A stretch of 41,648 nt of DNA from an uncultured Fibrobacteraceae bacterium. GTDB taxonomy: Bacteria > Krumholzibacteriota > Krumholzibacteriia > LZORAL124-64-63. Under the pieces are notes generated by a model. The model did not search any database, was not told where the DNA came from, and was given only the letters and a program-made list of their open reading frames with translations. Shown here in pieces: positions 24,326 to 40,178 of this stretch; position 1 is the stretch's first letter; each line of letters opens with the position of its first letter. The stretch spans positions 1 to 41,648 of the forward strand of contig CAZAHC010000002.1 in assembly GCA_964484595.1 (NCBI GenBank), in the 5' to 3' direction. A program made the translations under genes and the position numbers.

Positions 24326-24340
24326 GGCGACTCTCCAACC

Positions 24341-24373
24341 GGAAAAGGGATGCCGGCCCGCCTGCGGGCCGGC
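24341..24373 (-). terminator. intrinsic terminator after the aminotransferase gene
   Basis: The minus strand reads GCCGGCCCG-CAGG-CGGGCCGGC (perfect 9-bp stem, 24352-24373) followed by AUCCCUUUUCC. It lies 20 nt after the stop at 24394. Confidence 0.55.
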
Positions 24374-24393
24374 ACCAAGGGACCAGCGACCGG

Positions 24394-25557
24394 CTAGCGC
24401 AAGCTGGCCGCGAAATCGGCAACCCTGGCGAGGGCCTTGCGGATGTTCTCCTGGCTGTTGGCGTAACTGAACCGCAGGTATCCCTCACCGAACTCCCCGA
24501 ACGAGGTCCCGGCCAGGGCGGCCACCCCGAACTCGTTCAGCAGCTTCGTCTCGGCTTCCTTGCTGCACAGACCCAGGCCCTTGATGTTCGGGAAGACGTA
24601 GAAGGCCCCGTTCGGTCGCAGGCAGGTGATACCCTCGATCGCGTTCAACCCGTCGACCAGCAGGTCGCGCCGGGTCTTGAACTCGGCGACCATCGCCTGC
24701 GCGGCGTCCTGGGGACCGGTCAACGCCTCGGCGCCGGCGATCTGGGTGAACGAGGCGGTGCAGCTGGCGCAGTTTGTCTGCAGCTTCGCCACCTGCTCCG
24801 CCAGATCGGCCGGCATGACCCCGAAACCCAGGCGCCAGCCGGTCATGGCGTAGGTCTTCGAGTGGCCGTCCAGGATGATCGTCCTGGCCAGCATCCCCGG
24901 CCGGGTCGAGATGGATTCGTGCTGCCCCTGGTAGATGATCTTGCTGTAGATCTCGTCCGAAAGAACCCAGAAATCGTGCTTGACGGCCAGCTCGGCGATG
25001 GCGTCCAGGTCGGCCGCCGAGAGCACGCCGCCGGTGGGATTCTGTGGCGAGTTGATGATCAGGAGCTTCGTCTTGTCGCTGACCAAGGCGGCCAGATCGT
25101 CGATGGAAAAGGAGAATTCCTTCTCCTCGGTGAGCCGCAGAGGGAGGGCCTTGGCCCCGAGGAAGTTGATGACCGACTCGTAGATGGGGAAACCGGGATT
25201 GGGATAGATGACCTCGTCTCCGGGGTCCACCAGGGCGAGCAAGGGATAGAAGATGATCGGCTTCCCGCCGGGGGTGATCACGATGTTCTGCGGCCCGACC
25301 TCGATGCCGCGGTCGGCGGCAATGTACTCGGCGAAGGTCCGCCGAACTTCCGGCAGCCCGGCGGACGGCCCGTAGTGCGTGTAGCCGCTGCGCAGCGCCT
25401 CGACGGCCTTGTCGATGATGTTGGCGGGCGTGTCGAAATCGGGCTCGCCGATCTCGAGGTGGACCATGTCCTTCCCGGCCGCCTCGAGCTCCTTGGCGCG
25501 AGCCAGGACCTCGAAGGCGGTCTCGGTGCCCAGTCTTCCCATTCTCTTGGCCAGCAT
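24394..25557 (-). CDS. class I/II pyridoxal-phosphate aminotransferase (aspartate aminotransferase-like)
   Basis: VHLEIGEPDFDTP, INSPQNPTGGV and the PLP-lysine context GHSKTYAMTGWRLGF. Start at the ATG at 25557 (MLAKRMGRLG), giving 387 aa. Confidence 0.88.
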   Translation of the reverse strand: MLAKRMGRLGTETAFEVLARAKELEAAGKDMVHLEIGEPDFDTPANIIDKAVEALRSGYTHYGPSAGLPEVRRTFAEYIAADRGIEVGPQNIVITPGGKPIIFYPLLALVDPGDEVIYPNPGFPIYESVINFLGAKALPLRLTEEKEFSFSIDDLAALVSDKTKLLIINSPQNPTGGVLSAADLDAIAELAVKHDFWVLSDEIYSKIIYQGQHESISTRPGMLARTIILDGHSKTYAMTGWRLGFGVMPADLAEQVAKLQTNCASCTASFTQIAGAEALTGPQDAAQAMVAEFKTRRDLLVDGLNAIEGITCLRPNGAFYVFPNIKGLGLCSKEAETKLLNEFGVAALAGTSFGEFGEGYLRFSYANSQENIRKALARVADFAASLR

Positions 25558-25629
25558 TGCCTTCCCCCAGGAAAAAGTACCAAACCAGCCCGGCTTTGGC
25601 CCCGCGGCGGGTATCCAGCAGAAGGTGCA

Positions 25630-25658
25630 AACGTAAGGTAGGAATCTCGCCAAGTCAA
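25630..25658 (-). promoter_or_regulatory. sigma-70-like promoter pattern upstream of the aminotransferase gene
   Basis: The minus strand reads TTGACT - 17 nt - TACGTT (-35 at 25653-25658, -10 at 25630-25635), about 70 nt upstream of the ATG. Pattern match only. Confidence 0.35.
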
Positions 25659-25698
25659 GGAACGAGAAAGAGTTTCGGGATCGCTGTCCGTCTCCAGA

Positions 25699-27351
25699 CT
25701 ACTGGGAAATGGACCGCAGGTAACTCTTGATCTCCTTGACGACCTCGTCCCGGAAGGTGGTCTTGTCGCGAGCCAGGCGCTGCAGATCGACCCGCGAGAC
25801 GTACTTGACGTGAATGAACTTCCGCAGGGTCTTGACCGGGATGTTGCAGGGGCTGGAGAGCAGGGCCAGCGGCACTTCCTGGTTGGCGTAGCCGCAGTAA
25901 AGGTCGCGAGTGGTGGCGACCATCTCCAGCACGTTCACGCTGCGACACCGGGTGACCACCGACGCCACCAGGCCCGGGATTCCGACGATCTTGGGATTGC
26001 GCAGGAACCCGACCAGAACCGAAACCGAACCGATGTTGTTCAGGACCAGGCGCTTGACCGCCAGCGCCTCCATGGCTTCCCGCTCGTTCGCCGGGACCTC
26101 GGCCAGCAGCAGATCCAGGACCTCCTGGTCTGACTCGGCCGGCAGGGGCAGATCGTCCCGCCAGACCCGGTCGCCCAGACTCACCGGCGGCAAGCGCAGA
26201 ACCAGCCGGCCCTTTTCGACCGCAAACCCGGTCAGCGGCCAGGCCGCCAGGCCGTCACCTTCGGCCGGCGCGGCCAGGATCGCGGCGACCGTCTCGCGCA
26301 GGGCCTCATCCAGGGCCAGGCTCAGCTCGCCGTTGCGCTCGTTGAGCTGGATGATCCGGATCGCGGTCAGCAGGTCCAGCTCCGTCTGGCGGGCCCCCTC
26401 GGACTTCAGGTGATGCGCCAGGGCCATCAGTCGCGCTGCGCTGACGGCCAGCTGAGGAACGGGGATGGCGTTCCGCAGCAGACCGTCCTGCAGCTCGGCC
26501 AGGGGCGCCAGCTGCCCGGTCTCGAACAGGACCCGGGCCAGGGCGCTGCGCTCCTTCTCCTCCAGAACCTCGTGCGAGCGCGGCACCCGCTCGTGGAACG
26601 CCTTCTCGACCTGGCCGGCCTCGAGCCAGCTGATGAACTCCCGCAGGTCCCGGATCTCGGCATCGGCCCGGCTCAGGAGCGGCAAAACCTTCACCACCGC
26701 CGACACCCGGAAGGGGTCGATCTCGCCGGCCAGCTGGGAAATGCGCTCCTGGTAGGCGTCCACCTCCAGACGGGCCAGGTCGGCCAGGAGGCTGTTGTCC
26801 GCCGGTGGTAAGCTACCCTGGCGATAGAGGGTGGCCACGAAGTGCCTCAGGCACCTACGCATCAACGGATACGGCGACTCGCTGCCGGGACGCCCACTGG
26901 GGGTCGCCCTGGCCCCGGGGATCTCGTCCTCCCGGCCCAGGCACTGCGCCTCGAGATCCCGCAGGTGCTGCACCCAGGTCCGCAGCGCGCCGGCCGCCTC
27001 CTCCCCTTCTCCCATCCTGATCCGGACCCGGCGCGTGCTCGATAAGGAATGGATGCGGGGAATGAGCCTGGCCCCGGGCGTGTTGGCGTCGAGGAAGGCC
27101 GCCAGCAGGCGGGCCCCGGCCGGCTCGAACTGTCGCACCAGCTCCTGCAGGCCATGCAGGTACGAGACCAGCCGCGGCTGACCGATCATCTTGCGCAGCT
27201 GTCCGTAGAGAGTCCGCGACCGGTCGGGCAGGGAATCGGTGGCGAAGGCGAGCTGGATCAGGTCCTGGCAAACCGCGGGGTCGGGAGAGGCGCCGGGACT
27301 TTCCTGGCCAGATTCGGTAAGCAGCAGATCGGTGCACAAGCTCTGGGCCAT
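25699..27351 (-). CDS. hypothetical protein (about 550 aa, probably cytoplasmic, largely helical), no family recognised
   Basis: Long open frame with balanced composition, no signal peptide and no hydrophobic helices. The ATG at 27351 (MAQSLCTDLL) is preceded by GAAGGGA; the track start at 27378 is a GTG. The C-terminal 120 aa (LRNPKIVGIPGLVASVVTRCRSVNVLEMVATTRDLYCGYANQEVPLALLSSPCNIPVKTLRKFIHV) look like helical repeats. Confidence 0.6.
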   Translation of the reverse strand: MAQSLCTDLLLTESGQESPGASPDPAVCQDLIQLAFATDSLPDRSRTLYGQLRKMIGQPRLVSYLHGLQELVRQFEPAGARLLAAFLDANTPGARLIPRIHSLSSTRRVRIRMGEGEEAAGALRTWVQHLRDLEAQCLGREDEIPGARATPSGRPGSESPYPLMRRCLRHFVATLYRQGSLPPADNSLLADLARLEVDAYQERISQLAGEIDPFRVSAVVKVLPLLSRADAEIRDLREFISWLEAGQVEKAFHERVPRSHEVLEEKERSALARVLFETGQLAPLAELQDGLLRNAIPVPQLAVSAARLMALAHHLKSEGARQTELDLLTAIRIIQLNERNGELSLALDEALRETVAAILAAPAEGDGLAAWPLTGFAVEKGRLVLRLPPVSLGDRVWRDDLPLPAESDQEVLDLLLAEVPANEREAMEALAVKRLVLNNIGSVSVLVGFLRNPKIVGIPGLVASVVTRCRSVNVLEMVATTRDLYCGYANQEVPLALLSSPCNIPVKTLRKFIHVKYVSRVDLQRLARDKTTFRDEVVKEIKSYLRSISQ

Positions 27352-27486
27352 GACACGAAGGTCCCTTCTCGCTAGCACAGGCAGGGGACGGGATCCTGGT
27401 TACCCTCTTGCCATCGGCTGGAACCAAGGGGAGTTTACCGGGATGATTGGGACGGGGGCCAGGCCCGGCTCACCGCCCGGGCAATA

Positions 27487-29205
27487 TCACCAGGACCACC
27501 TCACGCCACCCAGCCATTCCAGGCTCGGTGGCCGGGAATCCTGCCGGGCGGGATTGCGGACCACCAGGCCGAACTGACAGGCCAGGGGACCGGCTTGCTT
27601 CTCGATCCCCCCGCTGACCTCCCCGGACCAGCTGCCCCAGTGCCGGGGCAAGACCACCCCCGCCAGGGGATTGGCCACACTCACCAGGTCGATGCCCTCC
27701 CCCCAGGCCCAGGCCCAGCCCGCGCGCAACCGCCAGCCGGGCCGCCAGAGCCAGACACCCCGCCAGGCCAGGAGACTGCGCCGCTCGGTCTGGGCGACCG
27801 TACCCGCCGGGGCCGGGTCGCGTCGCTGCGCCAGCATCCTTATCTCGGCCCGCCAGTCCAGATCCCGGCTGCCACCCCGCACCAGGATCACCGTCTGGCT
27901 CCGCAACCTGCTCGCCAGCTGCAAGGCCGGCAGCCAGGGCAGGCGGTCCGCCCAGCCGCGGTCGACATCCTGGCTCGCCCGGTGCCGCACCTCGCAACGG
28001 ATCCCGGGGGTCGGGCGCCACTCACCACCCAGTTCCCAGATCACGGTGGTTTCGGTCTCGGGACCCGCGGTGTCGTTCTGGCGGCCCCGGTTGCGGGCCC
28101 ACAAACCCAGCACCCGGGTCCGGTCTCCGAACCGCAGGTAGCCTCTGACCGCCCAGCCCCACCCGTTCCAGCTCCCCAGGCAGGCCGGACGCCGGGCCAG
28201 CAGGACTGCCTGCCTTTCCGCCACCGCCAGCTGGGCCTCCAGCCGCCAGCGATCGTCCCGCAGACAGCCCGCCGCCGCCCAGGCCCTCGCCGGGCTTTGA
28301 TCCCCGTCCGGCAGCCAGAAGGCGGCCTCCGCCCTGACCGCACCCCAGGCCGGCTGCGCCGCCACGGCGAGGCTGGCTCCGGTGTCGCCGCCCTGCCGGC
28401 CGGCCAGACAGCTCAGCTCGACCCCGCGATCTCTTCCGGCGGCCGCCCGCAACAGACGGACCTCCGATCGCGGACGGGAACGAGGAGGATCCTGATTCCG
28501 GCCCACGAGACAGGCCAGTCTGCCGGGGCCGGCGTTCACCTCCGTCAGCAGCCCCCAGACGGCGCAGCGGTCGGCTGCGCCCGCGAACCCCTTGCCGCCC
28601 TGCCCTCCGGAAAGCAAGGGCATCGCCGCGGAGAGACTGCGCCAGCGGCCCGGCCCGGCACAGAAGAGACCCAGGCCATGGTGCAGACCGACGCCCCCGC
28701 CGGCGGCCTTCCAGACTCCCTGCCTCGCCTCGACCGTGCCGCCCAGCTCCTGTTCGCCGTCCGCGCCGACCCGCCAGCGAAGCGCGCCGGCCACTTGCCG
28801 CCAGCGGCAACGCAACCTGGTTATCCGGGAACCGATCCCCACCTGGGGAGAACGGCCCTGCCAGGTCACCTGGCCGGACCAGCCCGCCTCGATCGCCGAG
28901 ATTTCCGGGAGTTCGCCAGTCATGAGGGAAGGGCTCAATCCCAGCCGCTCCCAGTCGGCGGTGGTCAACGGCAAGCCGCCTTCCTGGATCTCGGCCAGGA
29001 GACGGGCAGTTTCCAGGGGATCTTCCCACCGGTACTGTTCGAAAAGGTCGGCGGCGAGACTGTCGGTTCCGGCGGGGGCGGCCGCCAACGCACCGGTGGC
29101 GCCTGTCACCACGACCAGCAGCAGGGCGGCCACCTCCCACCGGAACCGACAGCCAGCCCCGTCCCGCTTTGGCCGGACGCACCGACAACCACCCTTGCCC
29201 CTCAC
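27487..29205 (-). CDS. predicted outer-membrane beta-barrel-like protein (572 aa), family unknown
   Basis: I set the start to the GTG at 29205, which overlaps the upstream stop (GTGA). This gives a basic n-region plus hydrophobic core and an Ala-rich cleavage region (..RFRWEVAALLLVVVTGATGALAAAPAG). The remainder is W/R/G-rich with alternating strand-like segments and ends ..GGVRWSW (aromatic C-terminus). Third-position G+C is high in this frame. The track ORF extension to 29727 overlaps the upstream gene in another frame. Confidence 0.55.
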   Translation of the reverse strand: MRGKGGCRCVRPKRDGAGCRFRWEVAALLLVVVTGATGALAAAPAGTDSLAADLFEQYRWEDPLETARLLAEIQEGGLPLTTADWERLGLSPSLMTGELPEISAIEAGWSGQVTWQGRSPQVGIGSRITRLRCRWRQVAGALRWRVGADGEQELGGTVEARQGVWKAAGGGVGLHHGLGLFCAGPGRWRSLSAAMPLLSGGQGGKGFAGAADRCAVWGLLTEVNAGPGRLACLVGRNQDPPRSRPRSEVRLLRAAAGRDRGVELSCLAGRQGGDTGASLAVAAQPAWGAVRAEAAFWLPDGDQSPARAWAAAGCLRDDRWRLEAQLAVAERQAVLLARRPACLGSWNGWGWAVRGYLRFGDRTRVLGLWARNRGRQNDTAGPETETTVIWELGGEWRPTPGIRCEVRHRASQDVDRGWADRLPWLPALQLASRLRSQTVILVRGGSRDLDWRAEIRMLAQRRDPAPAGTVAQTERRSLLAWRGVWLWRPGWRLRAGWAWAWGEGIDLVSVANPLAGVVLPRHWGSWSGEVSGGIEKQAGPLACQFGLVVRNPARQDSRPPSLEWLGGVRWSW

Positions 29206-30035
29206 CAGGCCCCTCCCAGCTTGCCCCAGGTCAGGCTCCAGCGGTGGGTGAGACCGAGGTCGGGATGAACGAGGTGCGAGCTGCGAACCAGCCAGGCAGA
29301 TCCGGAGACGGCGGTTGTGATCCCGAGGCTCCCAGTGGCAGGATCGCCCCGCAACCCCAGGCCCACTCCTCTCCTCACCCGGACCACGAACGCCATCTGC
29401 AGGCTGGGCTCTCCGGTTCCGCTCCGGTCCACCGCCGCGGCCCACCAGCCGCCGCGAAACCGGCCGGCCGCCAGCAGCCACCGCCGCTGGCTCCGGCGGC
29501 CGTGCCAGGTGGGCGGCGGGAGCAGGGACCAGCTGATCCGCACCACCCACGGGCGCAGGGTCGGACCGACGAGCCCGACCGCGGCCGCCGGTTCGGGGCG
29601 ACTCGCTTCCCCGCCCAGCCGGACCCGGTCCCAGCCACCGTCGGCCAGCAGACGCCAGCCGCCGCCCCACCCGACCTTCAGGCGAACACGATCCTCCCTG
29701 AACAGATCGCCGCCGAGCCTCTGCCACGAACCCTCCACCTGGAACCCACGGCCGGACCTGCCCGCGGCGATCCGGTACAGCGGCAGTTCCGGCATGCCGA
29801 ACAGGCGGGCCTGTCCGCTGGAGAACCAGCTCCCCTCGGCGGCGAGGCGGGGCCGGCGGTCGGGGTCGTTCCCCCCGATCAACCTGGCCAGATGAGGCAG
29901 CGGGATCAGCCAGCCGTCTTCCATTTCCCGCAGGCCGCCGGCCGGGGCCGGGACCGTGCCGGCCAGGAGCACCACCAGGACCACGGCGAGTTCCAGCCCG
30001 GCCAGCCGGCCGCGAGGCCGATCGCCGCGGCTCAC
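29202..30035 (-). CDS. predicted small outer-membrane beta-barrel-like protein (277 aa), family unknown
   Basis: The GTG start at 30035 overlaps the upstream stop (GTGA). Signal-peptide-like N-terminus MSRGDRPRGRLAGLELAVVLVVLLAGTVPAPAG. Alternating segments (RVRLKVGW, WVVRISWSL, LQMAFVVRV, LTHRWSLTW). Ends ..GKLGGAW. Confidence 0.5.
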   Translation of the reverse strand: MSRGDRPRGRLAGLELAVVLVVLLAGTVPAPAGGLREMEDGWLIPLPHLARLIGGNDPDRRPRLAAEGSWFSSGQARLFGMPELPLYRIAAGRSGRGFQVEGSWQRLGGDLFREDRVRLKVGWGGGWRLLADGGWDRVRLGGEASRPEPAAAVGLVGPTLRPWVVRISWSLLPPPTWHGRRSQRRWLLAAGRFRGGWWAAAVDRSGTGEPSLQMAFVVRVRRGVGLGLRGDPATGSLGITTAVSGSAWLVRSSHLVHPDLGLTHRWSLTWGKLGGAW

Positions 30036-31822
30036 GGCTGCCCCCCGTTGCCGATCACGGCCAGCTTCTTGCGCCGACTCACGGGCCGGTCCTCGGCCCC
30101 GAACGTGCGCAGCAGGATCACGTACCCACCCGGGGGAGCGATCTCTCCCTGATCGTCCTTACCGTCCCACAGGACGTCCCGGGGTCCCGGCCCGAGACCG
30201 TCCCCGCCCAGGTCGCGTACCTGTTTTCCCCAGAGGTCGAACACCCTCGCTTCCCACCCGCTCTCCGGGCTGGCAAGCGTGAACAGGAGGTGCAGGACCG
30301 CCTCGCCCGGACCGCCGCCGGGATAGAAGGGGTTCGGGTGCAAGGTCAAAGGACCGCTGACCGGCTCGGTCAGTGAAAGGCCGTTCGGGCAACCCGGGCT
30401 GCTGCCGAGCTGGGAAGTGGCCGCCGCCCAGTTGCGCGCCGGATCGCCCGTGGGAACGATCGCCACCCTTTCGAGGGTGCGGCCGGTCTGAACCTCGCTC
30501 TGACCGCCGCCGAGCTCCACGTGGTCGAGGACCGTGCCCGTGCCGTCACCCAGGTAGACCCGGTCGGCGAAAGATCGGTCCGCCGGGGGACTGTTGTTCA
30601 ACGAAGGCCACGAACCAGGCAGCGCCATCGCCGCCAGGACCGGATCCTGGCTGCAGGCCGGCCTGGCCCCGGCCAGGAGCATCTGCTCCCACCAGGCGGC
30701 AAAACCGGCGGGGTCCTGGACCAGGATCGCGAACCGGTCCGGCGCGAGGAAGGCGGCGGGCAAGGGGCGCCAGTCGCCGTCCTCGTCTCGCACCACCAGG
30801 TCGGCCAGGGAAAGGTCGCCGGAGCCCGCGTTGCCGACCTCGATCCACTCGCCGGCACCCGTGACCGGGGCCGCCATCACTTCGCTGAGATAGGCGCCGG
30901 TCTGCCCAACCTGGTACGCCGGCAGCCGCAGGATCAGATCGGAGAAGTCGCCGCCGGCCGGAACCACCAGCCGGAGCGGAAAGCGTCCGGGAGAGTCCGG
31001 CTGCCAGGAAAAAGCGAGCAGCCGGCTCTGTTCCGGCGGCAGGGTTTCCAGCCAGCCGGCCAGGTGCTGGTCCTCGGCTTCCAGCCGGACCGGAACCGGG
31101 CCGAGTCCGGCCAGGCCGGTGTTGGTCAGGCAGACCGTCAGCTCCACCGGCCCGCCGGGTATCGCCAGCGACGGCGGTTCACACTCGACCAGCTCCGCCA
31201 CTGCGGCCTGGAGCGCGAAGTTCGGTCCGCCCGGCGTTGGTTCAGCCAGCGCCCACCAGTCGGCCGCGTTGTCGTCCGTGTCCTTGCCGTCCGGCTTCCG
31301 CCCGAGCGACTGACCGGAGGCGACGTCCGGGGCCGGCGTCCCCTCGCTGAAGGCGGGGTCGGTCAGATCACCGTACCCCAGCCGGTCGGTGGTGCCGTCG
31401 GTCAGGACCAGCCGCACCGCATCCGGGCCGTTCTGCAAGGCGAGGCCGACCTCCACCTGGCCTGCCGGCTCCCCGGACCACCCCCTGTCGACAATGAGGA
31501 AAAAACCGCCGGCGGCCAGGCTGTCCGGCAAACCGCCGGTCCAGCGCACCTGCCAGTCCGGGGCGGTCGCCCCGTTGGCGAACTCGAGCCTAACTCCTGT
31601 CAGAGAAATCGATTGCGGTCCGGGGTTGAATAACTCCACGAACTCGGCGCCGGCGTCGGTTCCGGCCGGATCGTAGCAGACCTCGTTCAGGACCGGGTCC
31701 TGCCCGGCGACGGGCCCGGTCACCAGGAGCAGCGGCCACAGCAGCGATCCCACGGCCGGCCGCGCCGTCCGGCCCGGGTCGGACCGGCCCAGGGAACGGG
31801 ACTCTGGCAAAGTGGGGACCAT
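30032..31822 (-). CDS. secreted protein with two lamin-tail-like (LTD) domains, a CARDB/Ig-like middle domain and a FlgD-Ig / T9SS-sorting-type C-terminal domain
   Basis: The ATG at 31822 gives a signal peptide (..AVGSLLWPLLLVTGPVAGQDP). LTD-like 1: VLNEVCYDPAGTDAGAEFVELFNPGPQSISLTGVRLEF. LTD-like 2: YLSEVMAAPVTGAGEWIEVGNAGSGDLSLADLVVRDEDGDW. C-terminal domain: LTLHPNPF..ARVFDLWGKQVRDL..VLWDGKDDQGEIAPPGGYVILL. Confidence 0.75.
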   Translation of the reverse strand: MVPTLPESRSLGRSDPGRTARPAVGSLLWPLLLVTGPVAGQDPVLNEVCYDPAGTDAGAEFVELFNPGPQSISLTGVRLEFANGATAPDWQVRWTGGLPDSLAAGGFFLIVDRGWSGEPAGQVEVGLALQNGPDAVRLVLTDGTTDRLGYGDLTDPAFSEGTPAPDVASGQSLGRKPDGKDTDDNAADWWALAEPTPGGPNFALQAAVAELVECEPPSLAIPGGPVELTVCLTNTGLAGLGPVPVRLEAEDQHLAGWLETLPPEQSRLLAFSWQPDSPGRFPLRLVVPAGGDFSDLILRLPAYQVGQTGAYLSEVMAAPVTGAGEWIEVGNAGSGDLSLADLVVRDEDGDWRPLPAAFLAPDRFAILVQDPAGFAAWWEQMLLAGARPACSQDPVLAAMALPGSWPSLNNSPPADRSFADRVYLGDGTGTVLDHVELGGGQSEVQTGRTLERVAIVPTGDPARNWAAATSQLGSSPGCPNGLSLTEPVSGPLTLHPNPFYPGGGPGEAVLHLLFTLASPESGWEARVFDLWGKQVRDLGGDGLGPGPRDVLWDGKDDQGEIAPPGGYVILLRTFGAEDRPVSRRKKLAVIGNGGQP

Positions 31823-31880
31823 CGCGGTCGACTTCCCGGGGAGGTCGGTCCAGGAAACGCAGGGAGGGGAGGAAAGCGGT

Positions 31881-34214
31881 TCAGAGCAACCCGTGCCGCC
31901 GGCGCAGGTACCATTCAAGGCCGAGCAGGATCACGACCAGACCCAGCAGGGGCCAGCCGGCCCAGATATCCTGTTGCCGGCGCGTGGTCTGGGTATCACC
32001 GGTCAGGTTCACCTCCGCCAGGGCCGCGGCGAGCCGGTCCCGCGCGCCCTCGGTTTCGGCGGCCAGGTAAGAACCTCCGAGACTGGCGGCGAGCTGGCGC
32101 AGGCGCCGGCGATCCTGCCGGACCTGGGTCGCTTCGAGCGAATGAGGGCTGACCACCAGGAAGTGTTCTCGCCCCGGCGTCGATTCCCCGCCGCCGGCCT
32201 GAGGCCGTACGCTGTAACGCCCCGCCGGCAGGGGCGGCAACACGACCGAGGCACAGCCGGGTTTCTCCGGCACGGCGGTCATGGAGAAGGTCCGGGCCGT
32301 CAGCCCGGTTCCCTCGTCCAGCGGCTGCAACCGCAGAACCACCGGGCGTTCGGTCACGGGGTCGCCGCGCAGATCCCGCCACTTGGCCTCTAGTCGTACC
32401 CTCTCACCTTCCTGATAGACGGTCCGATGGCCGGTCAGCGCCAGGCCCGTCCCCTCGGTCCCGGCAGCGCACCAGACTAGCAAGTTCCGCAGCAGGCGCC
32501 GCCCCGGCTGTTCCGGCCGGTCGGCCAGATCGCCGGGAGCTTCCCAGAACACGATCTCCCACAGCCGGCGTCCGCCGAACCAGCCCACGCGGCCTGAGCC
32601 ACGGTGGCAGATAGCCAGCAGGGGAAGCCGCTCCGGGCCGCCGCCGGGCAGGCGCGGGCGCGCAAAGAGGAGCGGGACACTGCCGGGTCGCGGTCGGGCC
32701 TCGACAACCTGGACGAGCGGCGGCAGCTTCTCCACCGCCGGCGCCACCGTTGCCAGCTCCGGCTGGACAACCTCCGCGAGCACCGGATGCCGGCTGCCGA
32801 GGGCGTCCGGTTCCACCACCCAGTCACCAGGTTGCCAGCGAGAATCTTGCAGCTCCACTGGCAACAAGGCGGCCAGCTCCGCCGGCGGCGGGGCGACCGC
32901 CCCGGCGGAACCCCGGTCCCCGGCCAGGGCCAGCAAGCCGAGACCGCCGTGGACCGCCGCGGCCAGGCTGGACCAGTGAATCGCGTGCCTGACATCGTCC
33001 CAACCGGTCAGGATGACCCCGTCCCACCGGAGCCACTGCTCCGATCGGTCGGGAGTGGACCAGCCCTCGAGACTATCCGCAAAAACCAGGCCGGCCGGGC
33101 CCTGGTATACCATCTCCAGCTCGAGGCGCTCCTCGCTCCGGGCCGCCCCGGCCAGGAAACGACTGTCCCAGCCAGGCTGACCGGCCAGCAGCAGCAAGCG
33201 GGCGCGCTCCTTGCGAACGTTAATGCCCAGGGTCACCTTGTTGTTGCCGAGGAAACGCTCGTTGGCGAGGGGCTCGATCTCGAGCTCGAACACCCGCAGG
33301 CCCGCTCGGGTGGGCTCACAGGACAGCTCCAGCCGGTATACGCCGCTGCCGGCCGCGGCGGCCGTGGTCGCTTCCGCCACCACCCGGTCCCCGCTGCGCA
33401 ACCTGACGGTGATCCCCTCGGGAGGGCGGTTCTCGAGGTTTCGCCCGGCAACCGCGACCTCGACCACGATCTCGTCGTCCTGGAAGGCAACGTCGGGGTA
33501 GCGCAGGTCCTGGACCGCCAGATCGGGCGGGCCGGCCGGATCCCCCACCCCGACCGCCATGAACGCCGCGGAACCGAGCGAGGCCTCCGCGTATCCGTCC
33601 GCTGCGCCCGCCACCGTGTCGTGCCCGTCACCGAGAACCATCACCAGCCGCAAGGGGAGCTCGGCCCAGCGATTTCCCACTTCCCTGGTCAGGGCCGCCA
33701 GATCGGTGCCGACCGCCACGGGCGCCGTCAGCTCCGGTCCGGCGCCCGGGACAACGCGGGCCGGCTCGAGGCCGTTCCCGCGCAGGCGGGTGATCCGCAC
33801 CGGTTCCGACCGGCTCTGCAGCAGGCTCTCGGCGGCTGCCACCAGCTGCCAGGAACGATCCCAGCGGCGGGGTACGAGGGCGGTCCCGGCCGAGTCGCGG
33901 CCGGGGCCCGGGGCGGAGGGACCGGGAGACTCCTCCCGCCCGGCCGCCAGCGTCATGCTGGCGGAATCCTCGACCACGACAACCACCTCGGCCGAGCGCG
34001 TCGTGGTCTGAATGCGAAAAACGGAGGGACCGGCCAGGGCCAGCAGGAGCAGGATCACCGAAGTGCTGCGCAGGAAGATCAGCCGGCGAGCCACGGCAGG
34101 AGGCGGTGCTGGTTCGCTGGCACCGTACTGGCGAACGGTCCAGCCGATGGCGGTCACCGCCGCCATCAGCAGCAAGGGCCAGCCCCAGATCGGGATCGCC
34201 CACTCGATAAACAC
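31881..34214 (-). CDS. large membrane protein with an N-terminal double-TM anchor and a C-terminal TM helix (BatA/vWA-like architecture)
   Basis: The GTG start at 34214 is 5 nt after AGGAGG. TM1 is IPIWGWPLLLMAAVTAIGWTV, TM2 is LIFLRSTSVILLLLALAGPSVF, followed by VVVVVEDSASM (a degenerate MIDAS-like strand). There is a long extracytoplasmic region with Ig-like and amidotransferase-like stretches (RLLLLAGQPGWDSRFL, WDGVILTGW). The C-terminal TM is WAGWPLLGLVVILLGLEWYLRRR. Family placement is by architecture only. Confidence 0.7.
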   Translation of the reverse strand: MFIEWAIPIWGWPLLLMAAVTAIGWTVRQYGASEPAPPPAVARRLIFLRSTSVILLLLALAGPSVFRIQTTTRSAEVVVVVEDSASMTLAAGREESPGPSAPGPGRDSAGTALVPRRWDRSWQLVAAAESLLQSRSEPVRITRLRGNGLEPARVVPGAGPELTAPVAVGTDLAALTREVGNRWAELPLRLVMVLGDGHDTVAGAADGYAEASLGSAAFMAVGVGDPAGPPDLAVQDLRYPDVAFQDDEIVVEVAVAGRNLENRPPEGITVRLRSGDRVVAEATTAAAAGSGVYRLELSCEPTRAGLRVFELEIEPLANERFLGNNKVTLGINVRKERARLLLLAGQPGWDSRFLAGAARSEERLELEMVYQGPAGLVFADSLEGWSTPDRSEQWLRWDGVILTGWDDVRHAIHWSSLAAAVHGGLGLLALAGDRGSAGAVAPPPAELAALLPVELQDSRWQPGDWVVEPDALGSRHPVLAEVVQPELATVAPAVEKLPPLVQVVEARPRPGSVPLLFARPRLPGGGPERLPLLAICHRGSGRVGWFGGRRLWEIVFWEAPGDLADRPEQPGRRLLRNLLVWCAAGTEGTGLALTGHRTVYQEGERVRLEAKWRDLRGDPVTERPVVLRLQPLDEGTGLTARTFSMTAVPEKPGCASVVLPPLPAGRYSVRPQAGGGESTPGREHFLVVSPHSLEATQVRQDRRRLRQLAASLGGSYLAAETEGARDRLAAALAEVNLTGDTQTTRRQQDIWAGWPLLGLVVILLGLEWYLRRRHGLL

Positions 34215-34261
34215 CCCGGCCTCCTAAAATCCCGGGTTAATCCGGGGCTCATGCCGGAGAA

Positions 34262-34783
34262 TCAGCCGGAGTCGCGGTCGCGGTCCTGCCCTTCCGGCCG
34301 GGCCAACTCGTCCACCTTTTGCAGACCCTCCAGAAGAAACAGGTCCAGGCTCACATCGAGCAGGATGTCCTCGTCCTCCGGAAGCCGGCCCAGGTAAAAG
34401 CGAAACCGGCCGCGGGGCCAGGCGACCATTTTCGCCACCACGGCCCGGATCTGGTCGGTGATCACCTTGGTCAGGGTCTCCTGGTCTACCGACCCCGCCT
34501 CGAGAAAGATCTGGCCGATGCGCTTCTTCTCGGTGGCGAGACCCGCCCTCAGGTTCGCGCCGATGAGCTGGGATTCGCTGATGTACCCCAGACGCAGCAG
34601 ACGTTCGCCCAGCCTTTCGGACGGTCCCCGCCGGCGCGCGTAGATCAGCTCCCCCTGGTGGAAGTAGGCCCAGGCCTGGTCGTCTTCCCCGTCGAGAACC
34701 AGCTTGCCGGTGCTCCGGGTGTGGCTCAGGAACTGCATCACATCCGGCACCGAGAAGGGGCCGATCGTGCCACTGAGAACCAT
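34262..34783 (-). CDS. DUF4388 (PATAN-like) domain protein
   Basis: GTIGPFSVPDVMQFLSHTRSTGKLVLDGEDDQAWAYFHQGELIYA, then LGERLLRLGYISESQL..IGQIFLEAGSVDQETL and WPRGRFRF, which match my memory of the DUF4388 pattern. The ATG at 34783 sits 8 nt after GAGG; the track start at 34789 is a TTG. Confidence 0.7.
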   Translation of the reverse strand: MVLSGTIGPFSVPDVMQFLSHTRSTGKLVLDGEDDQAWAYFHQGELIYARRRGPSERLGERLLRLGYISESQLIGANLRAGLATEKKRIGQIFLEAGSVDQETLTKVITDQIRAVVAKMVAWPRGRFRFYLGRLPEDEDILLDVSLDLFLLEGLQKVDELARPEGQDRDRDSG

Positions 34784-34841
34784 GGCCAAGACCTCGTCTA
34801 CACCGGGGCGAGAACCCTGCGCGCCGGGGGCGCCGACCCGC

Positions 34842-37520
<2,679 letters not shown>

Positions 37521-37631
37521 GATCCCTCCTGGTTCGGTTCAAGGATTCTCGGACAGGGCCTAGCCCCAGAAAGAAGCGGTTCCCGCCGCGGGTATGCTGC
37601 GGAGGACGAAGTCCCCGCCAAATACACGGTC

Positions 37632-37660
37632 AGTATAGGTTCTGGCCGGAAGAATGTCCC
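37632..37660 (-). promoter_or_regulatory. sigma-70-like promoter pattern upstream of ppdK
   Basis: The minus strand reads GGGACA - 17 nt - TATACT (-35 at 37655-37660, -10 at 37632-37637), about 110 nt upstream of the ppdK ATG. Good -10, partial -35. Confidence 0.3.
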
Positions 37661-37693
37661 TGGCAATCCGGAATCGAGGCAACTCCCTTGGTC

Positions 37694-40087
37694 TCAGCGG
37701 ATAATGACCAGCTTGCCGTAGAAGTCGTCTCGCCCGGGAATCTCGGTCTTCCAGATGTAGACGCCGGAGGCCAGCACCTCGCCGCTCTGGTTGGCCGTGT
37801 CCCAGTAGAGATTGGCGCGATCCTCTGGGTTGTCGTGGGCCAGGTCGGCCACGACGTCCCCGTCGAGGGTGAAGACCTTGATGCGGATCTCGCCCGTGTC
37901 CGGAGGATCGGGCAGGTTGGTGAACATCACGTACCGGCCGCCCCGGAAACCGGTTCCCTGCCGCAGGGGATTGGGGATGACTATGACCTCGTCGGTCCCC
38001 TCGCCCCCGGCGAGGGGCTGGCCGTGAACGTTGGCGGTGAATTTGATCAGGTTCCCGGGGCCGGTGAAGGGCGAGTTATCGTCGCCGTCGAACCGGGGCG
38101 AGAACAGCATCTCCTGCGCCAGCGAAGGTGGTTCCACACCAGCGGTGCTACCGTAGTCGAAGGTGGTCACGGCATAGAAATAGGTGAACCCGTTGAAGAC
38201 GTCGTCGTCGAAGAACTCGACCCAGCCCTCTGGGATGCCCAGTCGCTCGGTACATCCAGGATCCATCTTGTTGGGGCAGAAGCAGGCGGCCCGGCGTTCA
38301 CTGAAGCAGTTCGGGTTGATGTTGTAGTTCTGATCCGCGCAGTTCCCCTCGATGCAGGATTCGGGGTTCGTCTTGTCATAGAGGCCGATCAGCTGCATGG
38401 TGGCCGAAGCGACGTCGACGCAGCGCCAGATCGCGTACCCCTGGAAATCCTGGCCGAGGACGCTGAAGGTGGCGCCGGAGTCGACAGGGCCGGCGGCAAA
38501 GGACACCATCATGCCGGTATCGGCGATCGGCAGCAGGGTGCCCGCCTCGTAGATCCCCCCGAAGAGACTGGCCAGGAAGAGATCGCCTTGGCCGGGCCCC
38601 GGCCCCGCCAGCGAGGGGAGGAAGGCGTTGCCGGAGGCGTTAGGCACCGTATCCTCGAACCAGGCCCAGGAAAAACCGCCGTCGCCGCTGGTCAGCAGGT
38701 GGTTGGTGGTGGCGCCGAAAATGGTGCCCGGCAGCAGGGGATCGTAGAAGAGGCTGTGCACGGGTTCCGTGCTTGAAACCTCCTGCGGCAGGATTTCCTC
38801 GGCGACCCGCACCCAGTGAGCACCGCCGTCGGTCGTGCGCCAGATGCCCTTCTTCTCCGTCCCGACCAAAACCTCTTGCGGGTCGGCCGGATTGACGAGG
38901 ACGCTGAGCCCGTTGTGCTTCCAGCCCTCCTCGCCCACGGTGATCCAGTCACCGGTCATGGCTTCCCAGGTCTCGCCGGTGTCGGAAGAGTGAAAGAGAG
39001 CGTTATTATCAACGGCGACGAGCAGGTGATCGGGATTGCTGGGATCGACGACAACCAGGTTCACCTGGGGGAAAACGGTCACCGGCTGTTCGTTCTGGAT
39101 GTCCGGCACCAGCAGGTTTTCCAGATGAACGAAGCTCTGGCCGCCGTCGTGGGAGACGAAGAGGCCGAAGGCCGCCACCGCGACGAAGAGATCCCCGCCG
39201 GGCGTCCAGCTCAGGGCCGTGACCTTGAAGTTGGCCGGGTACGGCAGCCCGGGCGCCAGTTCGGTGGTCCACTGCTGGAAGGAGGCGCCGCCGTCGAAGG
39301 TGATGAAGAGCCCGTCGGCGTTGGTCCCCACGGCAAAAGTGGCGTCATCATCCGGAGCAAAGACCACCTGTCGGGCCAGGAAACCGTCGGGGAAGACGTC
39401 GCTGGCGATCCTGCTCCAAGAACCCTCCGCACTGCCGGTCCTCTCCCACAGACCCTGCGTCCGGCCGGTGGGCTGGGGATCGCCCGCCGAACCCAGCAGG
39501 AGCAGGAAGTGCTCCGGGTCCTGGGGCGACTGGGCGAGCGCGAGGATGTCGGTGTAACGCAAGTGCTGCGGCAGACCGGCGTTCATCTGCGTCCAGGTGT
39601 CGGTCGAACGCTGATAGCGCAGAACGCCCCCGTTGTTGCCGAGCAGGAAGGTCCCGCCGACCGATTCCTCGCCCTCCGGCACGGGGAACCGATCCCCCCA
39701 GTCCACCATGGACATGGTTGCCCAGGTCGTCCCGCCGACCTCGCCGGCGCGGCTGAAGAAAAACTCGACTTCCCGGTCGAAGTCGCTCCGGTATTCACAG
39801 GCCAGATCGAGAGTGACCAGAACCGATTCGGAGTCGATGATGGCCGCGCAGGTGGCGACGCTGTCGGCAAGGTCACGCCAGCGGACGATGGCGCCGAAAC
39901 GTTCGCCGGGGGCGGAAAGCCTCACGCTCAGATCGTCGCCGTCAGGGGATACCAGCGGCAGGAACCCCGCCCCGCAACTCAGTGAATCGGGAACCGTCTG
40001 CGCGAGGTTGAGCCCAGTCCAGGATAGTACAACGACCACCCCGGTGCAGAAGAAAAGCCCGAGCTTCTTCACGCCACCCTGTCTCAT
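37694..40087 (-). CDS. secreted BNR/Asp-box repeat beta-propeller protein with a FlgD-Ig / T9SS-sorting-type C-terminal domain
   Basis: Signal peptide (..KKLGLFFCTGVVVVLSWTGLNLAQT). At least five Asp-box-like repeats (TFDGGASF, SHDGGQSF, SSDTGETW, TTDGGAHW, TSGDGGFSW). C-terminal VIVIPNPL..IKVFTLDGDVVADL..LYWDTANQSGEVLASGVYIWK..GKLVIIR. The alternative GTG start at 40072 gives MKKLGLFF. Confidence 0.75.
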   Translation of the reverse strand: MRQGGVKKLGLFFCTGVVVVLSWTGLNLAQTVPDSLSCGAGFLPLVSPDGDDLSVRLSAPGERFGAIVRWRDLADSVATCAAIIDSESVLVTLDLACEYRSDFDREVEFFFSRAGEVGGTTWATMSMVDWGDRFPVPEGEESVGGTFLLGNNGGVLRYQRSTDTWTQMNAGLPQHLRYTDILALAQSPQDPEHFLLLLGSAGDPQPTGRTQGLWERTGSAEGSWSRIASDVFPDGFLARQVVFAPDDDATFAVGTNADGLFITFDGGASFQQWTTELAPGLPYPANFKVTALSWTPGGDLFVAVAAFGLFVSHDGGQSFVHLENLLVPDIQNEQPVTVFPQVNLVVVDPSNPDHLLVAVDNNALFHSSDTGETWEAMTGDWITVGEEGWKHNGLSVLVNPADPQEVLVGTEKKGIWRTTDGGAHWVRVAEEILPQEVSSTEPVHSLFYDPLLPGTIFGATTNHLLTSGDGGFSWAWFEDTVPNASGNAFLPSLAGPGPGQGDLFLASLFGGIYEAGTLLPIADTGMMVSFAAGPVDSGATFSVLGQDFQGYAIWRCVDVASATMQLIGLYDKTNPESCIEGNCADQNYNINPNCFSERRAACFCPNKMDPGCTERLGIPEGWVEFFDDDVFNGFTYFYAVTTFDYGSTAGVEPPSLAQEMLFSPRFDGDDNSPFTGPGNLIKFTANVHGQPLAGGEGTDEVIVIPNPLRQGTGFRGGRYVMFTNLPDPPDTGEIRIKVFTLDGDVVADLAHDNPEDRANLYWDTANQSGEVLASGVYIWKTEIPGRDDFYGKLVIIR

Positions 40088-40114
40088 TCTACCGGCCTAC
40101 CTTTCCAGCTGCAA
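40086..40114 (-). promoter_or_regulatory. sigma-70-like promoter pattern overlapping the annotated ATG of the BNR gene
   Basis: The minus strand reads TTGCAG - 17 nt - TAGAAT (-35 at 40109-40114, -10 at 40086-40091). The -10 shares two bases with the ATG at 40085-40087. Confidence 0.3.
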
Positions 40115-40134
40115 AGCCTCTCGGAAACGAATCC

Positions 40135-40178
40135 CCCTGCACGGCCTCGGCCCGTTCGACCGAGGCGTAGGTGCAGGG
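40135..40178 (-). terminator. two-tier hairpin downstream of the truncated gene (terminator-like)
   Basis: Outer stem ccctgcac/gtgcaggg (40135-40142 with 40171-40178) and inner stem gcctcgg/ccgaggc (40144-40150 with 40160-40166). On the minus strand it is followed by GGAUUCGUUUCC. It lies about 40 nt after the stop at 40220. Confidence 0.4.

What the first reader, a model, noticed from the sequence alone, without database searches (positions are those of the whole stretch)
27487..34783. Envelope gene cluster built almost entirely from poorly characterised parts (best candidate for an undescribed surface or secretion module)
Five consecutive minus-strand genes sit between ppdK and ordinary metabolic genes. 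In order: a DUF4388-like cytoplasmic protein (34262-34783), then a 777-aa protein with an N-terminal two-TM hairpin, a large external region and a C-terminal TM anchor (31881-34214). Next comes a 596-aa secreted protein with two lamin-tail-like domains and a FlgD-Ig/T9SS-type C-terminal domain (30032-31822). It is followed by 277-aa and 572-aa signal-peptide proteins with beta-barrel-like sequence (29202-30035 and 27487-29205). The last three are joined by GTGA stop/start overlaps, so they are almost certainly co-expressed. A 550-aa protein of no recognisable family follows after a 135-nt gap. No catalytic domain is recognisable in any of these products. The combination (inner-membrane anchor protein, exported cargo with a sorting-type CTD, two dedicated barrels, cytoplasmic DUF4388) reads like a cell-envelope assembly or display system rather than random neighbours.
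Basis: partly seen in the sequence, partly recalled or inferred. Interest (0 to 1): 0.7.

Follow-up and report, generated by a model that had tools for sequence, protein, structure and literature searches.

The report
Conserved envelope module with new barrels
Four adjacent genes, kept in the same order in every available Krumholzibacteriota genome, encode an inner-membrane anchor, an exported Ig-like protein and two outer-membrane barrels of undescribed families; they most likely place that protein on the cell surface, but the function is untested.

Summary
In detail: coordinates, GTGA overlaps, signal peptides, membrane anchors and domain calls all check out.

- **Synteny.** The core is four genes: a 777-aa protein, the LTD protein, a 277-aa barrel and a 572-aa barrel. 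They keep this order in all 61 species-level genomes, 18 metagenome contigs and 3 further contigs examined, all Krumholzibacteriota-type. The stop/start overlaps of the last three genes are conserved.
- **777-aa protein.** It is an inner-membrane protein anchored at both ends. Its periplasmic part contains a BatB-like vWA domain with all metal-site (MIDAS) positions kept, and a GATase1-like domain.
- **LTD protein.** Its layout is LTD–CARDB–LTD followed by a FlgD-Ig-type C-terminal domain.
- **Barrels.** AlphaFold2 models the 277-aa protein as a 14-strand barrel (pLDDT 90) and the 572-aa protein as a 24-strand barrel (pLDDT 80). Neither matches any Pfam, NCBIfam or PDB sequence. Both were found only at this locus.
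- **Not core.** DUF4388 is present in only 7 other loci. The 559-aa protein is absent from 6.
- **Caveat.** The flanking housekeeping genes are syntenic too, so gene order alone does not prove a shared function.
- **Best reading (about 0.45).** A dedicated surface-display or secretion device. The closest analogue is the pairing of T9SS type-B cargo with a PorP/SprF barrel, but family membership is not met.

The parts
31881..34214 (-). A777: inner-membrane protein, 777 aa. It has an N-terminal two-TM hairpin, a large periplasmic region and a C-terminal TM anchor. The periplasmic region runs vWA with MIDAS, Ig-like, GATase1-like, Ig/MG2-like.
   Evidence: TM segments lie at 6-23, 44-69 and 749-770. 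The Arg-rich loop 28-49 and the RRRHGLL tail place the large region in the periplasm (positive-inside rule; inference). A family profile hits the BatB vWA domain 3ibs (residues 72-211, 1.9e-4) and the GATase1-like protein 3rht (residues 377-565, 1.5e-7). E/D82, S84, S86, T/S170 and D196 are kept in 30 of 30 sequences. About 70 orthologue clusters share 39-55% identity; distant relatives carry PF07090.
30032..31822 (-). LTD protein: exported, 596 aa. Layout: signal peptide, LTD, CARDB-like, LTD, FlgD-Ig-type C-terminal domain (candidate sorting or anchoring domain).
   Evidence: Pfam on 33 orthologues: LTD in 33, FlgD_ig in 31, CARDB in 10, CHU_C (type-B T9SS signal) weakly in 6, best E 0.0077. 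The family profile hits FlgD Ig domains (7e-6) and CARDB structures (2e-4) in the PDB. Two Cys are conserved, C390 and C478. The C-terminal domain is homologous to that of the neighbouring BNR protein (hhalign 94.8%, E 5e-8).
29202..30035 (-). B277: 14-strand outer-membrane beta-barrel of an undescribed family, 277 aa. It has a signal peptide, a conserved N-terminal RDLxDGWL segment and an invariant SHxxHPxLGxTHR hairpin.
   Evidence: AlphaFold2 with 86 sequences: pLDDT 90.5, pTM 0.84, 14 strands between residues 68 and 271. Foldseek finds only generic 14-strand barrels (Omp33, OmpG, chain F of the T9SS complex 8gl6) with TM about 0.5 and identity of 11% or less. No Pfam hit in 45 members and no PDB sequence hit. 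There are 147 representatives among 1.84 billion; nearly all are single-domain and at most about 300 aa, apart from a few fragments and two weak longer hits (374 and 2284 aa) that were not examined. The GTGA overlap with the LTD stop is read.
27487..29205 (-). B572: 24-strand outer-membrane beta-barrel of an undescribed family, 572 aa. It has a signal peptide and an acidic helical N-terminal (periplasmic) extension. Four conserved long loops fall after odd-numbered strands.
   Evidence: AlphaFold2 with 31 sequences: pLDDT 80.3, pTM 0.78, barrel 109-571. I count 24 strands plus a hairpin at 508-522. The best Foldseek matches are the 24-strand ushers FimD and PapC and 22-strand TonB-dependent transporters, with TM 0.4-0.5 and identity of 12% or less. 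No Pfam hit in 38 members and no meaningful PDB sequence hit. The N-terminal extension is 21% D/E and 5% K/R, against 8% and 13% in the barrel. The GTGA overlap with the B277 stop is read.
34262..34783 (-). DUF4388 (PATAN) cytoplasmic protein with MshEN-like c-di-GMP motifs. It is a lineage-specific insertion and not a core part.
   Evidence: Pfam 2.7e-27. NCBIfam c-di-GMP_motif 1.1e-8, below the cut-off. Present only in the window and 7 other loci.
25699..27378 (-). C559: cytoplasmic protein of unknown family. It is usually downstream of the module but is not a core part.
   Evidence: No hydrophobic segment. No Pfam or PDB hit in 26 members. Present in most loci but absent in L031, L032, L033, L036, L063 and L085. 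It lies 108 nt (GTG start) or 135 nt (ATG start) after B572.

Best explanation
The four genes A777, LTD, B277 and B572 form a co-expressed envelope module specific to Krumholzibacteriota. Its most likely job is to move the LTD protein to the cell surface and hold it there.

Proposed steps:
1. All four products are exported or inserted by Sec. This is shown only as signal peptides and TM segments.
2. B277 and B572 insert in the outer membrane as 14- and 24-strand barrels. This rests on confident structure models.
3. The LTD protein is a chain of four Ig-like domains ending in a FlgD-Ig/T9SS-like C-terminal domain. It is handed to its cognate barrels. B277, made by translational coupling directly after the cargo, acts as shuttle or anchor, in the way PorP/SprF barrels hold type-B T9SS cargo. 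B572 has a lumen of the same size class as usher pores and is either the conduit or the platform. This step is inferred.
4. A777 is anchored in the inner membrane at both ends. It reaches into the periplasm and uses its intact vWA metal site (MIDAS) to bind an acidic ligand. The conserved acidic N-terminal extension of B572 is the obvious candidate, and this would tie the outer-membrane parts to the inner membrane. This step is inferred.

DUF4388 and C559 are not core parts.
For: **Synteny.** The order A777-LTD-B277-B572 is identical in every locus long enough to show it: 61 species-level genomes, 18 metagenome contigs, 3 further contigs, and the two most divergent B277 relatives. B277 and B572 were found nowhere else.

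**Co-expression.** LTD-to-B277 stop/start overlaps occur in 43 of 46 loci. B277-to-B572 4-nt overlaps occur in 33 of 42 loci. Public gene calls use exactly these overlapping starts in 17 of 28 sequences tested.

**Envelope location.** Hydrophobic segments, barrel models and two conserved Cys in LTD.

**Sorting-type C-terminal domain.** FlgD_ig in 31 of 33 orthologues and CHU_C weakly in 6 of 33. The domain is homologous to the C-terminal domain of the neighbouring BNR protein, which in turn resembles the PorZ and PorU C-termini.

**Conserved surface of the barrels.** Conserved motifs lie in the loops after odd-numbered strands: B277 L1, L2, L5, L6 and L7; B572 L3, L7, L9 and L11. In outer-membrane barrels these are the extracellular loops. 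The strand positions come and the conserved positions; the sidedness is inferred. This fits binding of an external partner.

**Periplasmic link.** All MIDAS positions are conserved, and the B572 extension is acidic.

**Precedent.** Type-B CTD cargo is genetically linked to, and bound by, cognate PorP/SprF barrels (PMC9143113, PMC12618676).
Against: - No result shows that LTD reaches the surface, or that the four proteins interact.
- The whole neighbourhood, including ppdK, a carbamate-kinase-like gene, purD and glyA, is equally syntenic. Stop/start overlaps also occur between other gene pairs there. Linkage therefore shows co-expression, not a shared function.
- B277 has no detectable similarity to PorP/SprF or PorV. 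It also lacks conserved Cys, which SprF uses (PMC12635249).
- In the window protein the C-terminal domain matches FlgD_ig only below Pfam's cut-off.
- B572 lacks the plug and periplasmic domains of ushers. Its 40-residue loop L3 could close the lumen.
- Universal single-copy presence in a housekeeping region fits a structural role as well as a display role.
- I could not test whether these genomes also encode a canonical T9SS.
Confidence: 0.45

Rival explanations
1. The module is a structural trans-envelope complex and does not secrete anything. A777, the two barrels and the LTD protein would form a housekeeping tether or scaffold. It would link inner and outer membrane, or organise the outer membrane or surface layer of this phylum.
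For: - The module is universal, single-copy and embedded among housekeeping genes in every genome.
- A777 is anchored at both ends and has a large periplasmic region with a vWA adhesion site.
- The B572 extension is acidic and periplasmic.
- Both barrels have very short periplasmic turns. B277 has a compact, low-profile surface.
- No ATPase or other energy source is encoded in the cluster.
Against: - A 24-strand barrel is larger than an anchor needs to be.
- The LTD protein carries a sorting-type C-terminal domain.
- The conserved residues of both barrels map to the predicted external loops rather than the periplasmic turns.
Confidence: 0.25
2. The module is an uptake device. The LTD protein would be a surface-exposed binding protein, for a polymer such as DNA or a glycan. 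B572 would be the import channel and B277 an auxiliary porin or anchor, loosely like SusC/SusD.
For: - B572 resembles 22-strand TonB-dependent transporters about as well as it resembles ushers.
- LTD and CARDB are binding-type Ig folds.
- From my own knowledge, not tested here: bacterial LTDs often accompany extracellular nucleases.
Against: - B572 has no plug domain, TonB box or TonB-dependent-receptor Pfam hit.
- No TonB/ExbBD genes, inner-membrane transporter or hydrolase lie in the block.
- Nothing in this reading explains the vWA/GATase1-like protein A777.
Confidence: 0.12
3. The genes are functionally unrelated neighbours, frozen in a block that rarely rearranges in this phylum. They would be co-transcribed only for convenience.
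For: The flanking metabolic genes are just as syntenic. Because there is no variation in gene content, phylogenetic profiles cannot separate the genes.
Against: - Four consecutive envelope proteins sit in an otherwise cytoplasmic housekeeping region.
- Two phylum-specific barrel families occur only here and only together.
- The stop/start overlaps linking cargo, B277 and B572 are conserved across the phylum.
Confidence: 0.08

Closest known systems
T9SS type-B CTD cargo with its cognate PorP/SprF outer-membrane barrel (for example SprB-SprF and PG1035-PorP; PMC9143113, PMC12618676)
   Same: - An exported cargo with an Ig-like C-terminal sorting domain is encoded directly upstream of a roughly 270-300 aa outer-membrane barrel.
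- 6 of 33 LTD orthologues weakly hit the type-B signal model CHU_C.
- The B277 model aligns as well with a chain of the T9SS translocon complex 8gl6 (TMq 0.53) as with any other barrel.
   Different: - B277 shows no sequence similarity to PorP/SprF or PorV.
- B277 has no conserved cysteines, unlike the twin-Cys tail of SprF (PMC12635249).
- A second, 24-strand barrel and a vWA inner-membrane protein are coupled to the pair. No PorE-like partner is present.
- The phylum is outside Bacteroidota. Whether it has a T9SS core is unknown.
BatA/BatB aerotolerance-type vWA membrane proteins and the PF07090 GATase1-like membrane protein family (PDB 3ibs, 4jdu, 3rht)
   Same: - A777 has the N-terminal double-TM layout.
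- Its vWA domain matches BatB (1.9e-4) and its GATase1-like domain matches 3rht (1.5e-7).
- Distant homologues carry PF07090.
   Different: - No MoxR ATPase, DUF58 or DUF4159 partner lies in the block. Distant relatives do sit next to DUF4159, or next to MoxR plus an S8 peptidase.
- The window protein itself is below detection for the Pfam and NCBIfam models.
- The partner genes here (LTD, B277, B572) are unique to this phylum.
Chaperone-usher pore (FimD, PapC)
   Same: B572 is modelled with 24 strands, the strand number of usher translocation domains. These are its best Foldseek matches (1e-8, TMq 0.44-0.48).
   Different: - No plug, N-terminal or C-terminal usher domains: B572 is 572 aa, against about 800 aa for ushers.
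- No Usher Pfam hit.
- No PapD-like chaperone or pilin genes.
- Identity is 10% or less, so the resemblance is in barrel size only.

Membership tests
T9SS type-B cargo / PorP-SprF pair | The cargo ends in a type-B CTD (Pfam CHU_C PF13585 / TIGR04131). | tested here: inconclusive
   CHU_C is hit by 6 of 33 orthologues, best E 0.0077. FlgD_ig is hit by 31 of 33, best 1.8e-8. The window protein hits only FlgD_ig, at 4.7e-4.
T9SS type-B cargo / PorP-SprF pair | The adjacent gene encodes a PorP/SprF-family barrel (PF11751). | tested here: not met
   No Pfam hit of any kind in 45 B277 members at E up to 10. The window protein has no NCBIfam hit. Only the general architecture fits: a 14-strand barrel encoded next to the cargo.
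T9SS type-B cargo / PorP-SprF pair | Conserved cysteines in the barrel's tail for a disulfide link to the GldK/PorK track (PMC12635249). | tested here: not met
   No Cys is conserved in 80% or more of 86 B277 sequences.
T9SS type-B cargo / PorP-SprF pair | The genome encodes the T9SS core (SprA/Sov, PorK/L/M/N, PorV, PorU). | not testable with these tools
   Only about 20-kb stretches around the locus could be fetched. No such genes lie in the window. No paper links the phylum to the T9SS.
BatA/BatB-type vWA membrane proteins | A vWA domain with a MIDAS site. | tested here: met
   The profile hits BatB 3ibs (1.9e-4) and 4jdu (6e-4). E/D82-x-S84-x-S86, T/S170 and D196 are kept in 30 of 30 sequences.
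BatA/BatB-type vWA membrane proteins | An N-terminal double-TM domain (PF07584 / TIGR02226). | tested here: inconclusive
   Two N-terminal hydrophobic segments are present, but neither model is hit at E up to 0.1.
BatA/BatB-type vWA membrane proteins | Operon partners MoxR AAA+ ATPase and DUF58. | tested here: not met
   Neither is in the window or in the called genes of L001 and L068. A MoxR neighbour is seen only for a distant homologue in another lineage.
PF07090 GATase1-like family | A GATase1-like domain detectable by sequence. | tested here: met
   The family profile hits 3rht at 1.5e-7 over residues 377-565. Homologues at 23-28% identity carry PF07090. No Cys is conserved, so no amidotransferase nucleophile is present.
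Chaperone-usher pore | A 24-strand barrel with plug, NTD and CTD domains, plus chaperone and pilin genes. | tested here: not met
   Only the strand number matches. There is no Usher Pfam hit, the protein is too short, and no PapD-like or pilin genes lie in the block.
TonB-dependent transporter | A 22-strand barrel with an N-terminal plug and a TonB box. | tested here: not met
   No Plug or TonB_dep_Rec Pfam hit. The N-terminal region is a roughly 60-80 aa acidic helical stretch modelled with low confidence.

The most novel reading that the evidence does not exclude
B572 (24 strands) and B277 (14 strands) form a compact, self-contained outer-membrane device that translocates and anchors proteins carrying the FlgD-Ig-type C-terminal domain. 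It would work independently of the canonical T9SS and be tied to the inner membrane by the MIDAS-bearing protein A777. That would be a new protein display or secretion pathway confined to Krumholzibacteriota. It might also serve other CTD proteins, such as the neighbouring BNR protein.
Probability: 0.2. Interest if true: 0.85.

Novelty: new variant of a known kind. Interest (0 to 1): 0.55.

Why it matters
Krumholzibacteriota has no cultured representative that I know of, and I found no paper describing its envelope.

This module is a universal, phylum-defining set of envelope genes. It contains two outer-membrane barrel families with no relatives in Pfam, NCBIfam or the PDB.

If it displays or secretes the LTD protein, it would show how the 'cargo plus cognate barrel' logic of type-B T9SS substrates can exist outside Bacteroidota with different parts. 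It would also add a second kind of 24-strand protein-handling barrel beside the ushers.

Whatever its function, the two barrels could serve as marker genes for the phylum. They are also concrete targets for structural and heterologous-expression work.

Tried and rejected
- I fused the B277 and B572 alignments into one query (A4) to recover both families in the last word-indexed protein search. It returned only the window protein, probably because words from the Arg/Gly-rich sequences swamped the candidate list. That search was wasted.
I got round this with hits from the representative search and with exact look-ups of guessed gene products.
An alignment of the C-terminal region worked.

**Searches that found nothing**
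- Profile searches of B277, B572 and C559 against PDB sequences and Pfam. The antibody light-chain hits for B572 (E 0.007 or weaker) are noise.
- B277 and B572 are not paralogues of each other (hhalign probability 0.3%).
- Promoter and terminator scans gave nothing above background. Rfam gave no match.
- Literature searches on the phylum plus T9SS, and on PF07090/TIGR02226, found nothing relevant.

**Ideas considered and rejected**
- Chaperone-usher, TonB-dependent transporter and Bat operon membership: see the membership tests.
- DUF4388 and C559 as core parts.

The geometry of the three invariant His residues of B277 and the openness of the B572 lumen could not be examined.


Full report
**The observation**

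The five minus-strand ORFs are at the coordinates given. Third-position GC is 0.84-0.86 in each claimed frame, like ppdK at 0.90, so they are coding. The two GTGA junctions can be read directly. '...CAG CCG TGA' ends the LTD gene while GTG starts the 277-aa gene. '...GCC TGG TGA' ends the 277-aa gene while GTG starts the 572-aa gene.

Pfam gives DUF4388 (2.7e-27) for the first product. For the 596-aa product it gives LTD in two stretches (1.3e-17) plus a weak FlgD_ig match (4.7e-4). The 777-aa product gets only an insignificant MG2 hit (E 0.07, below cut-off). The 277-, 572- and 559-aa products get nothing.

A hydropathy scan finds TM-like segments at 6-23, 44-69 and 749-770 of the 777-aa protein. 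It finds one N-terminal segment in each of the LTD, 277-aa and 572-aa proteins, and none in DUF4388 or the 559-aa protein. The rest of the window is housekeeping: GTP cyclohydrolase I, purN, purM, argS, rsfS, ispA, tatC, nrdR, glyA, purD, a carbamate-kinase-like gene and an aminotransferase.

**Where the window comes from, and how widely the cluster occurs**

About 70 clusters of full-length homologues of the 777-aa protein (A777) share 39-55% identity with it. The few that carry a name are called Candidatus Krumholzibacteriota or Krumholzibacteriia.

A scan of one genome per species with the A777 family alignment returned 61 loci. All are MAGs; those with an informative label are mostly Krumholzibacteriota. 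I mapped ten gene families from the window onto these loci with iterated local HMMs.

The order found is BNR/sortilin protein, ppdK, A777, LTD, B277, B572, then usually the 559-aa protein (C559), then in about half the loci the aminotransferase, then the carbamate-kinase-like gene. This order is the same in every locus long enough to show it. No locus lacks any of the four core genes unless the contig ends.

The 572-aa family had only three hits in the word-indexed search, and all three sit in the same context. A metagenome scan with the conserved C-terminal motif of B572 gave 18 more loci, again all in this context. An exhaustive HMMER search with B277 found 147 representatives among 1.84 billion. 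Nearly all are single-domain and at most about 300 aa, apart from a few fragments and two weak longer hits (374 and 2284 aa) that I did not examine. The two most divergent full-length ones I looked up lie in the same block.

**What is not core**

- DUF4388 lies between ppdK and A777 only in the window and 7 other loci. Elsewhere ppdK abuts A777, with no room for another gene.
- C559 is missing in L031, L032, L033, L036, L063 and L085.

**Co-expression**

The LTD stop overlaps the B277 start by 4 nt in 37 of 46 loci and by 1 nt in 6 more. The B277 stop overlaps a valid B572 start by 4 nt in 33 of 42 loci. Products predicted from those overlapping starts are present, residue for residue, in the public protein collection for 17 of 28 tested. 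Independent gene callers therefore chose the same starts. With these starts every B572 orthologue has a clear signal peptide.

A777 is separated from LTD by a short untranslated gap, 58 nt in the window.

Two caveats apply. Overlaps also occur between other neighbouring genes of this block, for example the aminotransferase and the carbamate-kinase-like gene in L068. And the flanking housekeeping genes are equally syntenic. So these data show stable co-transcription and translational coupling; they do not by themselves show a common function.

**The parts**

*A777.* A profile of 30 orthologues hits the vWA domains of BatB (3ibs, 1.9e-4) and of an 'aerotolerance-related membrane protein' (4jdu) over residues 72-211. 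It hits the GATase1-like protein 3rht (1.5e-7) over residues 377-565. Weaker Ig/MG2-type signals lie between and after these domains.

All MIDAS positions are kept in 30 of 30 sequences: E/D82-D83-S84-x-S86, G169-T/S170 and D196-G197. No Cys is conserved, so an amidotransferase nucleophile is absent. The Arg-rich loop between the first two TM segments and the C-terminal RRRHGLL tail place the 680-residue middle part in the periplasm (positive-inside rule; inference).

Distant relatives in other lineages carry PF07090. They sit next to DUF4159, or next to MoxR plus an S8 peptidase with a Por_Secre_tail. They do not sit next to LTD, B277 or B572.

*LTD protein.* The layout is signal peptide, LTD, CARDB-like, LTD, FlgD-Ig-type C-terminal domain. 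Two Cys are conserved. The C-terminal domain is homologous to that of the conserved BNR/sortilin neighbour (hhalign 94.8%, E 5e-8). That neighbour's own C-terminus matches the C-termini of PorZ and PorU in NCBIfam. Six of 33 orthologues weakly hit CHU_C, the type-B T9SS signal.

*B277.* AlphaFold2 with 86 sequences gives pLDDT 90.5 and pTM 0.84. The model has 14 strands between residues 68 and 271, preceded by short helices. Foldseek finds only generic barrels: Omp33, OmpG and a chain of the T9SS translocon complex 8gl6, with TM about 0.5 and identity of 11% or less. Invariant residues include W42, G108, G238, H254, H257, L260, G261 and R265, with H264 in 98%.

*B572.* AlphaFold2 with 31 sequences gives pLDDT 80.3 and pTM 0.78. 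The barrel spans 109-571, and I count 24 strands plus a hairpin at 508-522. The first 106 residues are modelled with low confidence and contain short helices.

Gaps after odd-numbered strands are long (5, 5, 40, 10, 2, 7, 18, 6, 10, 7, 23 and 8 residues). Gaps after even-numbered strands are 2-5 residues. This is the usual pattern of extracellular loops and periplasmic turns. The four conserved motifs fall in loops L3, L7, L9 and L11:
- L3: GxGxxHGxGLLxxxPGR
- L7: RPAVLPGWxGxGWAxR
- L9: PWLPP
- L11: AWGDPVDLVSAxxPxxGxVLPRHWGxW

The conserved motifs of B277 likewise fall at the hairpins after odd-numbered strands. Best Foldseek matches for B572 are the 24-strand ushers FimD and PapC and the 22-strand TonB-dependent transporters, with TM 0.4-0.5 and identity of 12% or less. 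The N-terminal extension is acidic in all 32 orthologues examined: 21% D/E and 5% K/R, against 8% and 13% in the barrel.

B277 and B572 are not related to each other. Neither family has any Pfam hit in any member or a meaningful PDB sequence hit. The named public homologues are all 'hypothetical protein'.

**Most likely mechanism**

The following are shown:
- Four envelope proteins are encoded together, and the last three are translationally coupled, across a whole phylum.
- Two are outer-membrane barrels of 14 and 24 strands.
- One is an inner-membrane protein with a periplasmic vWA/MIDAS domain.
- One is an exported chain of Ig-like domains ending in a sorting-type domain.

The following are inferred:
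- The LTD protein is the cargo.
- B277, made immediately after it, is its cognate shuttle or anchor.
- B572 is the conduit or platform. Its conserved external loops and usher-class size fit a protein-handling role.
- A777 links the outer-membrane parts to the inner membrane through its MIDAS site, possibly by binding the acidic B572 extension.

I put about 0.85 on 'a real, co-expressed envelope module' and about 0.45 on 'dedicated display or secretion of the LTD protein'.

Rivals:
- A purely structural trans-envelope complex (0.25). This is favoured by universal single-copy presence among housekeeping genes and by the absence of any energy source.
- An uptake device (0.12).
- Unrelated neighbours in a frozen block (0.08).

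**Comparison with known systems**

The closest functional analogue is the type-B CTD cargo with its PorP/SprF barrel in the Bacteroidota T9SS. There the cargo genes are linked to cognate barrel genes, and the barrel binds the cargo at the surface (PMC9143113, PMC12618676).

Membership is not met:
- B277 has no PorP/SprF or PorV signal.
- B277 has no conserved Cys, unlike SprF (PMC12635249).
- The CTD is of FlgD-Ig type, with only weak CHU_C hits.
- I could not test whether a T9SS core is present.

A777 is a distant member of the BatB-vWA / PF07090 superfamily but lacks the MoxR, DUF58 or DUF4159 partners. B572 shares only strand number with ushers.

**Novelty and verdict**

The parts belong to known structural classes. 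But the two barrel families are undescribed, the gene combination is undescribed, and both are confined to one candidate phylum. I rate this a new variant of a known kind (cargo plus cognate barrel), with interest 0.55.

The most novel reading not excluded is a compact, T9SS-independent translocation and anchoring device for FlgD-Ig-CTD proteins. I give it probability about 0.2; it would be of high interest if true.

Noticed in passing
window 34262-34783 (-): The DUF4388/PATAN protein contains two tandem 24-residue motifs resembling the MshEN c-di-GMP-binding motif: RLGERLLRLGYISESQLIGANLRA, then 7 residues, then RIGQIFLEAGSVDQETLTKVITDQ. NCBIfam NF053729 scores 1.1e-8 and 34.7 bits, just below the 38-bit cut-off. 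It may be a c-di-GMP receptor inserted next to the envelope module in one subclade only.
   Followed up: partly
window 37694-40087 (-): A 797-aa BNR/sortilin-type propeller protein has a signal peptide. Its C-terminal domain is homologous to the LTD protein's CTD and to the PorZ and PorU C-termini. It is conserved upstream of ppdK in all loci. It could be a second cargo of the same pathway.
   Followed up: partly
window 25699-27378 (-): A 559-aa cytoplasmic protein has no Pfam or PDB relative in 26 orthologues. Its C-terminal roughly 120 residues are very strongly conserved (...LGFLRNPKVVAIPGLVA...KFIHVKYVSKVDLKRMA...). It is present in most loci but not all. Function unknown.
   Followed up: partly
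window 23345-41648 and loci L001, L068: Gene order is conserved over long range across the phylum. It includes unrelated housekeeping genes: ppdK, a carbamate-kinase-like gene, purD, purE, a Sua5-family gene, rpiB, glyA, nrdR, tatC and ispA. This degree of synteny is unusual for genomes whose orthologues share only 40-70% identity.
   Followed up: no
window 10333-11769 (-): A membrane protein with MASE9 and HD_5 (HD-GYP-type) domains. It is a possible c-di-GMP phosphodiesterase on the same contig as the MshEN-like DUF4388 protein.
   Followed up: no
window 40220-41647 (-): A partial ORF (475 aa, running off the window) with no Pfam hit. The corresponding upstream gene in L068 is 818 aa and also has no Pfam hit.
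   Followed up: no
window 29202-30035 (-), residues 253-265 of the product: Three His (H254 and H257 invariant, H264 in 98%) plus R265 (invariant) and S253 (87%) lie in the last hairpin of the 14-strand barrel. This could be a metal-binding or catalytic site at the predicted external rim.
   Followed up: partly
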